This document shows positions 8,775-16,438 of a stretch of 64,000 bases of DNA, one piece after another; position 1 is the first letter of the stretch, and each line of letters opens with the position of its first letter. The notes under the pieces are model-generated. The model ran no database searches and was not told the DNA's origin. It was given only the letters and a program-made list of their open reading frames with translations. Source of the stretch: the human T2T-CHM13v2.0 reference genome, Homo sapiens; assembly GCF_009914755.1 (NCBI RefSeq), contig NC_060935.1; one strand, given 5' to 3'. The translations under genes were made by a program, and so were the position numbers.

Positions 8775-9814
8775 TTAGGTTGGTGCAAATGTAATTGTGG
8801 TTTTTGCATTGTTGGAATTTGCCATTTGATATTGGAATACATTCTTAAATAATGTGGTTATGTTATCAGTCATTGCAATGGACATTTCTCGCTTTATTTT
8901 TTTGCTAATGACTTATTACTTGCTGTTTATTTTATGTTTATTTTTGACTATGGAAATGATGTTAGACAAAAAGCAAATCCGAGTGATTTTCTTATTTGAG
9001 TTCAAAATGGGCTGTAAAGCAGTGGAGACAACTTGCAACATCAACAACGCATTTGACCCAGAAACTGCTAATGAACATACAGTGCAGTGGTGGTTCAAGA
9101 AGTTTTGCAAAGGAGACGAGAGCCTTGAAGATGAGGAGTGTAGTGGCTGGCCATCGGAAGTCAACAATGACCAGTTGAGAGCAATCATCGAAGCTGATCC
9201 TCTTACAACTACGCAAGAAGTTGCCAAAGAACTCAGCGTTGACCATTCTACAGTCATTTGGCATTTGGGACAAATTGGAAAGGTGAAAAAGCTCGATAAG
9301 TGGGTGCCTCATGAGCTGACTGCAAATAGAAAACATCATTGTTTTGAAGTGTCATCTTATTCTACACAACAACAAACCATTCCTCAATCAGATCGTAATG
9401 TGTGATGAAAAGTAGATTTTATATGACAACTGGCAATGAACAGCTCAGTGACTGGATTGAGAAGCAGCTCCAAAGCACTTTCCAAGGTGAAACTTGCACG
9501 AAAAAAAGGTCATGGTCACTGTTTGGTTGTCTGTCGCTGGTCTGATCCACTACAGCTTTCTGAATCCCAGTGAAACCATTACATCTGAGAAGTATGCTCA
9601 GCACATCGATGAGATGCACTGAAAACTGCAACACCTGCAACTGGCACTGGTCAATAAAAAGGGCCCAATTCTTCTCCATGACAACATCCAACAGCACATC
9701 ATACAACCAATGCTTCAAAAGTTGAACAAATTCGGCTACGAAGTTGTGCCTTATCCACCATATTCACCTGACCTCTTGCCAACTGACTCCCACTTCTTCA
9801 AACATCTCAACAAC
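8775..9814 (+). mobile_element. Hsmar1 mariner transposon, 5' part (left TIR plus degenerate transposase)
   Basis: TA + TIR ttaggttggtgcaaatgtaattgtggttttt; from 8950 encodes MEMMLDKKQIRVIFLFEFKMG..WVPHEL; later YSPDL-coding region (tattcacctgacctc) with stops and frameshifts. Confidence 0.95.
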
Positions 9815-9970
9815 TGTTTTGAGGCTGATTTGAGTAATAATAAAACTCCGGTCTCCTGCACAGCTGGCTCTGCATGAATTATTCTTTCTTGATTGCAATT
9901 CCCCTGTCTTGATGAATAGGCTCTGTCTAGGCAGTGGACAAGGTGTCTCCCCCTTGGGTGGTTGCAAATT

Positions 9971-9988
9971 TGGGAGCTCATCTGGGAT
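9971..9988 (+). other. Retroviral primer-binding site, tRNA-Pro type
   Basis: tgggagctcatctgggat vs canonical PBS-Pro TGGGGGCTCGTCCGGGAT (3 mismatches), 4 nt after the LTR end ..ggttgca. Confidence 0.8.
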
Positions 9989-10184
9989 TGCCCTTGTGGC
10001 TACCTGCCCATGGTTCAGTGGCCCCCTCTTCAGCAATGGATCCAGAAGCCAGCCCAAGTGGTCGCCTAGTTCTCTTGGACTGGTGGCTGACTCTGGTACT
10101 CTCTCTACTGGTGGGGAGCTGCCAATCCAATGTACATGGGTTTAATTGCAATGGAGACATAGTCATGGGGAGATGTCCCTTAAC

Positions 10185-13307: not shown

Positions 13308-13628
13308 TTTTTTTGTTTTTTTGGTTTTTTTTTTTGTTTTTTTTTTTTTGAGACGGGGTCTTGCTCTGTCACCAGGCTGGAGTGCAGTGGCACAATCTCA
13401 GCTCATTGCAACTGCTGCCTCCTGGATTTAAGCAATTCTCCTGCCTCAGCCTCCTGAGTAGCTGGGACTACAGGCACACACCACCATGCCCAGCTAATTT
13501 TTGTATTTTTAGTAGAGATGAGGTTTCACCATGTTGGCCAGGATGGTCTCAATCTCTTGACCTCATGATCTGCCCACCTCGGCCTCCCAAAGTGCTGGGA
13601 CTACAGGCATGAGCCACCACATCTGGGC
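13308..13628 (-). mobile_element. Alu (AluSc-like)
   Basis: Reverse Alu with 'ggccaggatggtctcaatctcttgacctc'; TSD-like ata(g/a)agacagttt. Confidence 0.9.
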
Positions 13629-16199
13629 ATAAAGACAGTTTTAAAGATTATCGGTAAAACAAAGTGTCTTGAAAATATAGACATTTGGTCTAAATTAAGG
13701 CCAGATATCAGATCTGCTAAATGCCTTAAGGTCAAACTGTTTCCTTGACCTTTGAAAATCATTCAGTTTACCTACTTTGGAGCATTAGATTATAGATGAG
13801 GCTTGGGGACACATGAAGAGCCTTGCCCTTAGCTATGCTGAAAAGAATTAGATCTTATCTTCACTTCTATCTGATGTCCTAGGCTTCACCCCAGTACATA
13901 ATTAAAATTGCTTACTTATCAGGTTTTTCACTAAAAAACAAAAGTAGCAAAGAGTTAACATTGGAATATGAAATTGAGATTACTGGAGAAACAGTTTGAC
14001 ATACAAGGTGCGTAGGGAATGTGTTTTTGGTAAAAGTTTATAAGAAGGCATAAGAATATGGCTTTTGTTAAAGGGAATGTAATTTTTTCTGGTTTAGAGG
14101 GGGTTTTAAAGACTGTCTTAAACTAAGAGAGAATAAGACAAAACTGAAAGTTTAAGCAAAGTGAAAAGGTTTTGTAAAGCGTTAATCTTATAAAAAATTC
14201 TGTGGGTATACACAAGTTGGCTAAGATGTAAAAGAAATTATTTAGCTTTTTACAATAGGTTAGAACACTAATCATACTGATGTGGGGCCAGAATCTGGGC
14301 CCATGTGTCCAAATAACAGGGTTTTCTTAGAAAATTGATGTGCTGTTTGATTGAAAATTGTAAAGCGTTCTAAAAAGTTTATAAAAATCTTATCTTATGG
14401 TCAAACTAATTAAAACTGGATAGAGATATAAAATTTTATTTTAAAAAACAAACTTTAACATTAAAGATGCACTAATGCAAACATGAAATTTGGTTTTCTC
14501 TTTTGAAGACAATTTTTATGTAATGTTAAAAGATAATGAAAGGGTTTTGTTTTCTCCTTTGGGTAAACGGCAGGAAATAAAAGGAGGAGAGGGAGGAGAC
14601 AGATTTAGTTGGCCTCATGCTATCTTCGTTGGGTTTTGTTTGGAAAGCTAACCCCCCTCCATCGGAGTAAAGGATACAATTGGAGAAACTGGTCATTTTT
14701 CCAAGGCTTTGACTGGAATGGCATGCTTCTTGTAAAGAATCAAAGTTGACTTATGGAACCAATTAAAACCCACTGGGGAATCTGGCCTCATACCTTGTCC
14801 AGACAGAGTCCCTGTACAAGGTTCCTGACCTGTGTTAAGTAAAGAATGTCACTTTCTAACAGGCCCAGGAACCCCAAGTTATCTTGAGGAGAGGACTTTG
14901 TTCAACTCATAGGTATCTGAGGGTTCAAACCCATGGCTGGGCTCGGCTTTTAAAAAGCCTTATCTGAGATTCTTCATGGAACAGAGTTTCATCAAAGCCA
15001 ATTAAAAAAGCCTAAGTGAAAAATAATTATTCTTGCTGCACTTTATGCAAATAATCAGGCCAAGTACAGTGAAACTAAAGTTTGTTTTGTAAACTGTAAG
15101 TCAGTTCTATCATAATTTGTTTTTAATAAAAATAGGGACTGGAGAGAGAAAAATTATGCTTCAAAAGAAAAACTATATTACACTTTTGTTAGCTGTTCTT
15201 GATGTTTTTTTTTCTGCAGGTTAGACTAAATTCTAAATTATTTGTGAGTTAGAAGGCCCCAGACAAATGCTTTCCAATCTTTGCTTTTAAAATTGGGAAT
15301 TGTACTCCTCATCCTAGGACTCATTATTTACCTTATAGCATGCTCTTCATTTAAATACTGTACTAAAACTATAGATGAGAGTACTAATATTTTTGCCACA
15401 CAAGCCTTGGAAGCCCATCCAGGCCTGCATGAATACACTCAGTAGCAAAGCAGTTCCACTCTTCTCACCTTGGGGTTCACTCCCATTCCCATTATGTCCC
15501 CTGTCAGCAGGAAGAAGCTGGAGTGATAGATGGCCTTTTCCCGTCTTCATAGCCTACATCTTAAGATTAAGGTGTTATAAAACCCAAAGGGAGGGATTGA
15601 AACTGCCTTTGCAAAATTATGACTGAGACCGTGAAAGAGATCTAACTTAACCGACTCCATCTTGCTTCTGACCTCCAAGCTGTCCTTGTGCATTCCTGGG
15701 CATAGGCTGAACTAACTTTGGGAGAAACTTAGTTTGTAGTTTATAGTTTGAACAAAGACAGCCTTTCCCAAAGCAGACCTCCTTCTTGCCTGGGGACTAG
15801 ATTAACGTTAGCCACAGGATTAGAAATTATCATTTAGTAGTCACACAGCTGGAGGCTACAAGATTCTGACCCTCCCTAAACTGCTCCTAAGATTAGTGCT
15901 TGAGATATTTTGCAGATCCCGCACTTGATGGATCAGCTGTCACCACCCAGATCGATAAACTGGCTCATCTGATCTTGTGACCCCCACTTAAGAAGTGACT
16001 CAGCACAAGAAGGCAGCTTTGACTCCCTATGATTTCAGCCCTGATTATTCAGCACTCTTGGCTCACTGGCTGCCCCCCAACCACCAAGTTATCCTTAAAA
16101 ACTCTGCTCCCCGAATGCTCAGGGAGACTAATTTGAGTAGTAATAAAACTCTGGCCTCCCTCAAAAAACAAAAAGCAAAAAACAAAAACAACCAAAACT

Positions 16200-16438
16200 A
16201 AGTATCTCAACAACATTTTGTAGGAGAAACACTTTCACAACCAGCAGAATGCAGAAAAATTTGTCAAATCCCAAAGCGTGGATATTTATGTTACAGAATT
16301 AACAAACTTATTTCTCATTGCCAAAAATGTGTTGATTGTAATGGTTCCTATTTTGATTAATAAAGATGTGTTTGAGCCTAGTTATAATGATTTAAAATTC
16401 ATGGTCTAATACCACAATTTACTTTTACACCAATATAA
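16200..16438 (+). mobile_element. Hsmar1 3' part (transposase C-terminus and right TIR)
   Basis: Continues the transposase to ..tgtgttgattgtaatggttcctattttgattaa; right TIR accacaatttacttttacaccaatataa followed by TA. Confidence 0.93.

What the first reader, a model, noticed from the sequence alone, without database searches (positions are those of the whole stretch)
9800..16214. LTR8/HUERS-P1 endogenous retrovirus integrated as an L1-retroposed RNA (ERV processed pseudogene)
Seen: the 5' LTR lacks U3 and starts at R (gaggctgatttgagtaataataaaac, 9821); U5 ends at 9966, then PBS-Pro, ~5.6 kb internal sequence and PPT; the 3' LTR has U3-R only, ending ~14 nt after AATAAA (16142-16147), followed by an A-rich tail (16163-16199). 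Flanking direct repeats aaacatctcaacaac (9800-9814) and aagtatctcaacaac (16200-16214) match 13/15, whereas the integrase-made solo LTR8 at 30720 has a 4-bp TSD. Known: R..U3-R-polyA with a long TSD is the hallmark of L1 TPRT, well documented for HERV-W. Inference: LTR8-family genomic RNA was trans-mobilised by L1, a route much less described for this family.
Basis: partly seen in the sequence, partly recalled or inferred. Interest (0 to 1): 0.8.

Follow-up and report, generated by a model that had tools for sequence, protein, structure and literature searches.

The report
L1-retroposed copy of LTR8/HUERS-P1 retrovirus RNA
This is a dead, non-coding endogenous retrovirus that was pasted into an old mariner transposon as a copy of its RNA by the LINE-1 machinery, and many sister copies in the same genome arose the same way, a route so far credited mainly to the HERV-W group.

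Summary
Window 9821-16199 reads R-U5-PBS...PPT-U3-R-A-rich tail. Only 36-40 nt (R) are shared by the two ends. The tail is 28 A of 37. The element is flanked by a duplicated piece of a mariner transposon, 13/15 identical and probably about 21 nt long.

It is not an isolated case. Of 29 other loci that match its 5' junction, 12 also lack U3 and start at the same LTR position. For 8 of these 12 the 3' LTR was in reach, and all 8 stop at the same R end followed by an A-rich tail, most with 12-15 bp duplications. One further locus shows the same structure.

Genome-wide, an R-then-A-run pattern has 23 hits against 0 in the control at up to 1 mismatch, and 159 against 29 at up to 3 mismatches.

Retroposed and proviral copies are intermixed on a tree. 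No retroviral protein domain is detectable in the internal region.

The literature I could search joins no processed pseudogenes with LTR8/HUERS-P1. One review calls HERV-W the sole L1-mobilised HERV group.

Verdict: a real L1-made ERV processed pseudogene, and a new member of a known kind.

The parts
8968..9820 (+). Left part of the target: a decayed mariner (Hsmar1-type; name recalled) transposase pseudogene, interrupted by the insertion
   Evidence: Pfam on a read-through translation: HTH_48 E 3.2e-10 (nt about 8968-9117) and Transposase_1 E 2.5e-21 (nt about 9419-9652). All 40 scored of 369 first-look candidates matched; the 39 paralogs are 84-87% identical and most run to query base 260 of 261, i.e. 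window 9819.
9800..9820 (+). Upstream copy of the target-site duplication (15 nt certain at 9800-9814; probably to about 9820)
   Evidence: Matches 16200-16214 at 13/15. Seven of 7 intact mariner paralogs carry the stretch once and continue caacaac-tttttgcagg. Local alignment score 11.5, against a mean of 7.3 for 72 cross-locus pairs.
9821..9860 (+). R of the 5' end (transcript start ...GAGGCTGATTTGAG, contains AATAAA)
   Evidence: The only stretch shared with the 3' end (D11). Twelve other loci start at the same LTR position, solo position 562-576. This lies 27-29 nt after a TTAAAAA box in full LTRs.
9861..9966 (+). U5, ending in CA
   Evidence: Aligns to solo LTR positions up to 710.
9971..9988 (+). 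Primer-binding site of tRNA-Pro type
   Evidence: First nine bases are TGGGAGCTC, against TGGGGGCTC given for PBS-Pro ERVs including HUERS-P1-int (PMC10602909, passages). Variants with CpG decay were found at 23 of the 29 other loci; 6 gave no PBS match.
9989..15585 (+). Internal region, with no recognisable coding capacity; colinear with sister copies
   Evidence: Colinear at 74-88% identity with 12 other loci. No Pfam retroviral domain in 50 of 59 ORF pieces (the 9 Alu pieces were dropped) or in three sense frames read through with X.
11614..11919 (+). Later Alu insertion with its own 13-nt duplication (aaattggcttctg)
   Evidence: Read directly. Absent from sister copies.
13310..13630 (-). 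Later Alu insertion in reverse orientation, with duplication agacagtttt
   Evidence: Read directly. Absent from sister copies.
14672..14673 (+). Junction where about 1.2 kb present in sister copies is missing; the missing piece begins GT and ends in a pyrimidine tract plus CAG
   Evidence: Spacing between two internal landmarks is 1390 nt here and 2163 nt or more in 22 of 22 other loci (hand count).
15586..15596 (+). Polypurine tract (aaagggaggga)
   Evidence: Read directly, one base before the LTR start TG at 15598.
15598..16123 (+). U3 of the 3' LTR, with a TTAAAAA box about 27 nt before R
   Evidence: Aligns to solo LTR positions 1-572.
16124..16163 (+). R of the 3' end; AATAAA at 16142-16147, ends about 15 nt later; no U5
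   Evidence: The alignment to the solo LTR stops at position 608 of 710. All 8 sister loci with a 3' LTR in reach stop at 596-608.
16163..16199 (+). Decayed poly(A) tail
   Evidence: 28 A of 37. Not part of the LTR: R continues into U5 in 1333 genomic copies.
16200..16220 (+). Downstream copy of the target-site duplication
16200..16290 (+). Right part of the interrupted mariner (verified portion; the homology reads on to about 16445)
   Evidence: Aligns to 7 of 7 paralogs directly after the duplicated stretch.
30720..31429 (+). Solo LTR of the same family with a 4-bp duplication tgct: the integrase-made comparison

Best explanation
A full-length, polyadenylated transcript of an LTR8/HUERS-P1 element was captured in trans by the LINE-1 ORF2 protein. 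The transcript started at the U3/R border of a source 5' LTR and was cleaved after the CA about 15 nt past AATAAA in the 3' LTR. L1 reverse-transcribed it at a nick in a resident mariner copy (target-primed reverse transcription). The product is R-U5-PBS-internal-PPT-U3-R-poly(A), flanked by a 15-21 bp duplication of mariner sequence. It has no promoter at its 5' end.

Shown here: the anatomy, the duplication, the tail, and the same boundaries at many other loci.

Inferred: that L1 was the enzyme (from the tail, the long A-starting duplications and the TT|AAAA-like sites), and that the source RNA may have been spliced (a GT...AG-bounded 1.2 kb is missing).

The route was used repeatedly by this family, in parallel with ordinary integrase-made proviruses. 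That was roughly when Alu S-type and processed-pseudogene formation peaked. The dating is rough and based on about 0.1 substitutions per site on terminal branches.
For: **Anatomy.**
- Only R is shared by the two ends (D11).
- The 5' piece starts at solo-LTR position 573 and the 3' LTR stops at 608 of 710.
- The tail is 28 A of 37.

**Duplication.**
- It matches 13/15 and consists of mariner sequence present once in 7 of 7 paralogs.
- The flanks are a mariner transposase (Pfam E 2.5e-21 and 3.2e-10).

**Recurrence.**
- Twelve of 29 other 5'-junction loci lack U3 and start at position 562-576.
- Eight of those 12 had a 3' LTR within the 10 kb fetched, and all 8 end at position 596-608 followed by A-rich tails.
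- Exact duplications of 13-14 nt occur at three loci (L032, L033, L039). Good ones occur at L037, L042 and the window. Weaker ones occur at L031 and L038, and L040 is unclear.
- A tenth locus on contig 2 shows the same structure.
- In my reading, 9 of 9 readable duplications start with AA and 7 of 9 with AAAA. Seven of 9 are preceded by a pyrimidine (T or C): TT at three, TC at three, AC at one.

**Start and end fit the signals.**
- The start lies 27-29 nt after a TTAAAAA box.
- The end lies at a CA about 15-18 nt after AATAAA.

**Genome-wide.**
- R followed by an A-run: 23 hits against 0 in the control at up to 1 mismatch, and 159 against 29 at up to 3 mismatches.
- R continuing into U5: 1333 hits against 0.

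**Integrase route in the same family.**
- The solo LTR has a 4-bp duplication.
- The L010 provirus has complete LTR ends and duplications atcc/gtcc.
Against: - The insertion site is only a partial match to the L1 endonuclease preference: tc|aaac here, tc|aagc in the paralogs, against TT|AAAA.
- The tail is interrupted (9 non-A of 37) and the duplication has two mismatches. This fits age but weakens the case for this locus taken alone.
- No orthologous empty site could be examined, because no other primate genome is held.
- Four of the 12 U3-less loci (L034, L035, L036, L041) showed no 3' LTR within 9.6 kb, so their 3' ends are unknown.
- In the cross-locus control, 4 of 72 unrelated flank pairs scored 11 or more, because A-rich flanks align to tails. 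The weaker duplications (scores 7-9 at L031, L038, L040, L042) do not stand out from chance.
- Some R-poly(A) junctions genome-wide could come from host transcripts that merely end in an LTR8.
Confidence: 0.93

Rival explanations
1. An ordinary integrase-made provirus that later lost its 5' U3 and its 3' U5 by two independent deletions, next to a chance A-rich stretch.
For: The element is old: the tail and the duplication are decayed. Deletions are common in old proviruses; the window copy itself lacks 1.2 kb internally.
Against: The same two boundaries recur at 9 other loci, with different flanks and different tails. The duplication abuts both boundaries and is 15-21 nt long, not 4 nt as at the solo LTR and the L010 provirus. 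The boundaries coincide with the TATA-like box and the AATAAA spacing.
Confidence: 0.02
2. The RNA copy was inserted by a reverse transcriptase other than L1, for example the helper retrovirus enzyme with integrase-independent insertion at a DNA break, or another LINE.
For: The window's own target site is a weak L1 endonuclease site (tc|aagc in paralogs). No enzyme was tested.
Against: Across loci the duplications are 12-15 nt or longer. In my reading, 7 of 9 start with AAAA, and TT or TC precedes 6 of 9. Poly(A) tails sit directly at the duplication. Two Alus inside the element carry the same kind of duplication. L1 being the only active autonomous LINE in primates of that age is established knowledge, not tested here.
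Confidence: 0.03
3. The window copy is a DNA-level duplicate (segmental duplication or gene conversion) of another retroposed copy, not an independent insertion.
For: None specific. The nearest relatives are 87-89% identical.
Against: The flanks are a single mariner copy split exactly at the duplicated stretch. No other locus shares the flanks: the upstream flank matches only mariner paralogs at 87% or less. The terminal branch is 0.096, like all the others.
Confidence: 0.01

Closest known systems
HERV-W processed pseudogenes (Pavlicek et al. 2002, recalled and not held; Grandi et al. 2016, PMC5016936, passages seen)
   Same: R-U5 at the 5' end, U3-R at the 3' end, a poly(A) tail, a variable-length target-site duplication with an A-rich start, a copy colinear with the genomic RNA, many loci per genome, and coexistence with true proviruses and solo LTRs. 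A minority of HERV-W copies lack an intron-like piece (PMC6995185). The window copy likewise lacks a GT...AG-bounded piece.
   Different: A different ERV group (PBS-Pro, LTR8). The internal region shows no gag, pol or env remnant that Pfam can see, whereas HERV-W derives from a coding virus. It appears older (terminal branches about 0.1). Not described in the literature I could search.
Ordinary processed pseudogenes (retrocopies) of cellular mRNAs made by L1
   Same: A polyadenylated Pol II transcript copied in trans by L1. No promoter. Poly(A) tail and long duplication. Possibly intron loss.
   Different: The template is a retroviral-type genomic RNA whose 3' end carries a complete U3 promoter, so each copy deposits a potential promoter at its 3' end.
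Integrase-made LTR8/HUERS-P1 proviruses and solo LTRs (for example the solo LTR at 30720-31429; the L010 provirus; the HUERS-P1/LTR8 provirus near CSF1 in PMC6862598)
   Same: Same LTR and internal sequence (74-89% identical). Intermixed on the tree.
   Different: These have complete U3-R-U5 at both ends, a 4-bp duplication and no tail.

Membership tests
ERV processed pseudogene (L1-retroposed retroviral RNA; criteria as listed in PMC5016936) | 5' LTR reduced to R-U5 (no U3) | tested here: met
   The 5' piece aligns to the solo LTR only from position 573 of 710. The upstream sequence is mariner.
ERV processed pseudogene (L1-retroposed retroviral RNA; criteria as listed in PMC5016936) | 3' LTR reduced to U3-R (no U5) | tested here: met
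   The alignment to the solo LTR ends at position 608 of 710. No U5 sequence follows.
ERV processed pseudogene (L1-retroposed retroviral RNA; criteria as listed in PMC5016936) | Poly(A) tail directly after R | tested here: met
   16163-16199 holds 28 A of 37. It is not LTR sequence (1333 copies run on into U5).
ERV processed pseudogene (L1-retroposed retroviral RNA; criteria as listed in PMC5016936) | Target-site duplication of variable length, longer than the integrase one | tested here: met
   13/15 match, probably about 21 nt. The stretch is single in 7 of 7 mariner paralogs. The family's integrase duplication is 4 bp.
ERV processed pseudogene (L1-retroposed retroviral RNA; criteria as listed in PMC5016936) | TT/AAAA-type insertion motif | tested here: inconclusive
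   The window site reads tc|aaac (tc|aagc in paralogs). Sister loci are mostly TT|AAAA or TC|AAAA (my reading).
LTR8 / HUERS-P1 group of ERV1 (PBS-Pro) | Primer-binding site complementary to tRNA-Pro | tested here: met
   9971-9979 is TGGGAGCTC, against TGGGGGCTC for PBS-Pro ERVs including HUERS-P1-int (PMC10602909). Sister copies carry less decayed versions.
LTR8 / HUERS-P1 group of ERV1 (PBS-Pro) | Sequence match to the curated LTR8 and HUERS-P1-int references | not testable with these tools
   No Repbase or Dfam library is held. There is an indirect link. The element matches L013 along its length at 84-86%. L013 fits the published RepeatMasker description of a HUERS-P1/LTR8 provirus near CSF1, with its 5' LTR split by about 300 nt of Alu. 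That the two loci are identical is inferred.
LTR8 / HUERS-P1 group of ERV1 (PBS-Pro) | Retroviral genes (gag, pol, env) in the internal region | tested here: not met
   No Pfam hit at E up to 0.1 in three sense frames of the window copy or of L032. None in 150 ORF pieces from four copies. Either the genes have decayed beyond recognition or the element is non-autonomous.

The most novel reading that the evidence does not exclude
LTR8/HUERS-P1 is a second human ERV group that was mobilised en masse by LINE-1, so this route is not a peculiarity of HERV-W.

About 45% of the copies that keep a 5' junction are RNA copies: 14 of the 31 loci examined, out of about 60 such junctions genome-wide. R-poly(A) ends are at least as numerous as 5' junctions. 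This suggests many 5'-truncated copies.

The template appears to be a non-coding, non-autonomous LTR element. It spread by two routes at once: a helper retrovirus (4-bp duplications) and L1 (long duplications with a tail).

The window copy may be the one example derived from a spliced RNA.
Probability: 0.55. Interest if true: 0.65.

Novelty: new member of a known kind. Interest (0 to 1): 0.6.

Why it matters
[quoted passage not shown] Later work treats the presence or absence of such copies as a puzzle (PMC6995185). A second family with dozens of such copies gives a comparison for asking which features make an ERV RNA a good L1 template: high germline expression, a short R containing AATAAA, and lack of its own Gag.
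- **Annotation.** These loci are promoterless at the 5' end, so they should not be counted or dated as proviruses. LTR-to-LTR divergence is meaningless for them. Yet each deposits a full U3-R at its 3' end.
- **LTR8 signals.** The boundaries also map the transcription start and the poly(A) site of LTR8 without any transcript data.

Tried and rejected
1. **Search for gag, pol or env.** I ran Pfam on 50 of 59 sense ORF pieces of the window copy (the 9 Alu pieces were dropped). I also ran it on 100 pieces from L031, L032 and L039, and on X-read-through frames of the window copy and L032. No retroviral domain was found. The only hits were two chance hits at E about 0.1.

2. **Do retroposed copies form one clade (one master source)?** No. 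The tree needs 9 changes of label, against a shuffled mean of about 10. Three rows (L016, L021, L029) sit on long branches because of insertions.

3. **A 5'-to-3' abundance gradient as a sign of 5' truncation.** First-look candidate counts were 107 for the 5' internal segment, 632 for the middle-3' segment and 595 for the 3' segment. These are loose pre-filter counts and every list saturated at 40 scored hits. I treat them as suggestive only.

4. **Fuller census.** Nine of the 40 hits therefore remain unclassified. No 5'-truncated copy was verified by sequence.

5. **Literature and earlier notes.** Pavlicek 2002 is not held. Its discussion of other HERV families could bear on novelty.

6. **Independent deletions, DNA-level duplication, non-L1 enzyme.** All rejected or down-weighted, as given under the rival explanations.
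Full report
**1. The observation**

- The two ends of the element share only 9821-9856 and 16124-16159 (36 nt, 86% identical, family D11).
- The 5' piece aligns to the solo LTR from position 573 to 710. The 3' LTR aligns from position 1 to 608.
- U5 ends in CA at 9966.
- An 18-nt primer-binding site lies at 9971-9988. Its first nine bases differ at one position from the TGGGGGCTC reported for PBS-Pro ERVs, HUERS-P1-int included (PMC10602909, passages).
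- A purine tract at 15586-15596 precedes the 3' LTR, which starts at 15598.
- AATAAA is at 16142-16147 and R ends at 16162/16163. Then come 37 bases of which 28 are A.

**2. The flanks**

The flanks are a single old mariner copy.
- Pfam finds the Mos1-type HTH domain (E 3.2e-10) and the transposase DDE domain (E 2.5e-21) upstream of the insertion.
- The genome holds many paralogs at 84-87% identity. All 40 scored of 369 first-look candidates matched.
- Seven of 7 paralogs that I aligned read ...cttcttcaagcatctcaacaactttttgcagggaaaac..., with the stretch present once.
- In the window the stretch stands on both sides of the element, 13/15 identical.
- The upstream copy goes on as caacaac-tgttttg-agg before CTGATTT. 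The duplication is therefore probably about 21 nt with one indel, and the first base of R is ambiguous over a few bases.

In the same window the solo LTR has a 4-bp duplication, tgct.

**3. It is a family trait**

The window's own genome can be searched. The R-U5-PBS-leader piece (9815-10060) gave 40 scored matches, and 30 came back as loci, one of them the window itself.

*5' ends.* I aligned the solo LTR to the 29 others.
- Twelve have no U3. Their LTR begins at solo position 562-576.
- Seventeen have U3 upstream, and in five of these it is split by insertions.

*3' ends.* I fetched 10 kb for each of the 12 U3-less loci.
- Eight have a 3' LTR in reach. In all 8 it stops at solo position 596-608 and an A-rich tail of a different sequence follows.
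- The other four (L034, L035, L036, L041) have no 3' LTR within 9.6 kb. Their 3' ends remain unknown.

*Duplications.* They sit flush against both boundaries.
- 13 of 13 at L032, 14 of 14 at L033 and 14 of 14 at L039.
- Good at L037, L042 and the window.
- Weak at L031 and L038, and unclear at L040.

*Control.* Same-locus flank pairs score a mean of 10.9. The 72 cross-locus pairs score 7.3 (sd 1.8), and 4 of 72 reach 11 because A-rich flanks align to tails. The weak cases therefore do not stand out on their own.

A tenth locus, on contig 2, shows the same start, the same end and a 12-of-16 duplication.

By my reading, 9 of 9 readable duplications begin with AA and 7 of 9 with AAAA. Seven of 9 are preceded by a pyrimidine: TT at three, TC at three and AC at one.

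**4. The boundaries make sense as RNA ends**

- The common 5' start (GGAGA/GGGAGA before CTGATTTGAG) lies 27-29 nt after a TTAAAAA box in complete LTRs.
- The common 3' end is a CA about 15-18 nt after AATAAA.
- R is therefore about 40 nt long and contains the poly(A) signal.

**5. Numbers across the genome**

| Pattern | Mismatches allowed | Hits | Reversed control |
|---|---|---|---|
| R end followed by an A-run | up to 1 | 23 | 0 |
| R end followed by an A-run | up to 3 | 159 | 29 |
| R running on into U5 | up to 3 | 1333 | 0 |
| PBS-leader junction | up to 3 | 60 | 0 |

The 3-mismatch class of the first pattern is polluted by Alu tails and a few normal LTRs.

Tail-bearing R ends are thus at least as many as elements that still have a 5' junction.

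By coordinates alone, seven more loci pair an internal segment or a PBS-leader with an R-poly(A) end. They lie on contigs 21, 2 (two loci), 4, 3 (two loci) and 11.

**6. Relation to the proviruses**

- A tree of 1.1 kb from the R start was built for all 30 loci. The 13 RNA copies and the 17 proviral copies are intermixed: 9 changes of label against a shuffled mean of about 10.
- The median terminal branch is 0.096, and the shape is star-like. RNA copies were therefore made from several sources over the same period as proviral integration.
- One provirus (L010) was checked at both ends. It has complete LTR ends with flanks atcc and gtcc, a 4-bp duplication with one mismatch.
- The age can only be given roughly. 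About 0.1 substitutions per site is what is generally seen in Alu S-age repeats (my knowledge, not tested), and the insertion post-dates the mariner.

**7. What the RNA was**

- The internal regions of the 12 sister loci are colinear with the window copy at 74-88% identity.
- No retroviral protein domain is detectable. None appears in 50 of 59 sense ORF pieces of the window copy (the 9 Alu pieces were dropped) or in 100 pieces from three sister copies. None appears in three sense frames read through with X for the window copy and L032.
- Either the genes have decayed beyond Pfam's reach or the element is non-autonomous. I lean towards non-autonomous, but this is inference.
- The window copy lacks about 1.2 kb that sister copies have, at 14672/14673.
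- In sister copies the missing piece begins GT in L031, L032 and L037 (3 of 5 examined). It ends in a pyrimidine tract plus CAG in those same three (3 of 5 examined).
- The spacing of two internal landmarks is 1390 nt in the window and 2163 nt or more in 22 of 22 other loci (hand count).
- A copy made from a spliced RNA is the attractive reading. A later deletion cannot be excluded from one case.

**8. Name**

Locus L013, on chromosome 1 near 109.84 Mb, has a 5' LTR split by about 300 nt at solo-LTR position about 470. It matches the window element along its length at 84-86%. It fits the RepeatMasker description of the HUERS-P1/LTR8 provirus upstream of CSF1 in PMC6862598: an LTR8 of 691 bp interrupted after 453 bp by a 312-bp antisense Alu (passages). 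That these are the same locus is inferred.

**9. What is in print**

- Searches for HUERS-P1 with 'processed pseudogene' (2 papers, both unrelated).
- All 24 papers naming HUERS-P1 (listing).
- LTR8 with 'processed pseudogenes' (5 papers, none on this).
- R-U5/U3-R with LINE-1.
- A fifth phrasing.

None of these found a description of LTR8/HUERS-P1 RNA copies.

Three papers bear on novelty:
- Vargiu 2016 states that processed pseudogenes were not told apart from proviruses, and lists only 1 canonical and 3 other HUERSP1 chains (PMC4724089, passages).
- Grandi and Tramontano 2017 call HERV-W the sole HERV group specifically mobilised by L1 (PMC5537654, abstract).
- Grandi 2020 found no such copies for ERV-W-like elements of New World monkeys (PMC6995185, passages).

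Pavlicek 2002 is not held. Subscription journals and database notes were not searchable. Supplements were not consulted. I therefore cannot rule out prior notice.

**10. Verdict**

The locus is an L1-made processed pseudogene of an LTR8/HUERS-P1 transcript (confidence 0.93). It is one of at least ten verified in this genome and probably of several dozen.

It is a new member of a known kind. Its interest lies mainly in the family-level result, which contradicts the view that HERV-W is unique in this respect.

The element sits antisense in intron 1 of SLC22A24 (hub annotation). I saw no sign that it does anything there.

Noticed in passing
window 14672-14673; L031, L032, L037: The window copy lacks about 1.2 kb that sister copies carry. 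In sister copies the missing piece starts GT and ends in a pyrimidine tract plus CAG, as an intron would. The window is the only one of 23 loci with the short spacing. It may derive from a spliced RNA, or it may be a later deletion.
   Followed up: partly
window 9989-15585; L031, L032, L039: The internal region has no gag, pol or env remnant that Pfam can detect in any sense frame. The family may be a non-autonomous, non-coding LTR element.
   Followed up: partly
window 10183-10390: Six loosely tandem copies of a 26-28 nt unit (ctgtagc...gggtgtctgt) lie just downstream of the primer-binding site (families D1 and D2). The stretch aligns in sister copies. Function unknown.
   Followed up: no
window 11614-11919 (+) and about 13310-13630 (-): Two Alu insertions inside the element, each with its own duplication (aaattggcttctg; agacagtttt). 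Both are absent from sister copies, so they are later than the retroposition.
   Followed up: yes
window 30930-30975 within the solo LTR: The solo LTR carries about 30 extra bases (a local repeat of ggactaagaaat...) relative to the 3' LTR of the retroposed copy (columns 256-285).
   Followed up: no
window 15598-16163 versus SLC22A24 exon 1 (16627-17470, minus strand): The retroposed copy keeps a complete U3-R (TATA-like box and start site) at its 3' end. It points on the plus strand towards the first exon of SLC22A24, about 465 nt away. It could drive an antisense transcript; no expression data were examined.
   Followed up: no
L037 (G000 contig 4, about 101.47 Mb): This sister copy was inserted into the A-tail of an Alu. 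Its 3' R shows a small local rearrangement before the tail.
   Followed up: no
G000 contig 1, 90929114 and 90935546; 90929654: Two R-U5 junctions lie 6.4 kb apart on one strand, which looks like a provirus with both LTRs. Its 5' internal part is the closest match (88%) to the window copy.
   Followed up: no
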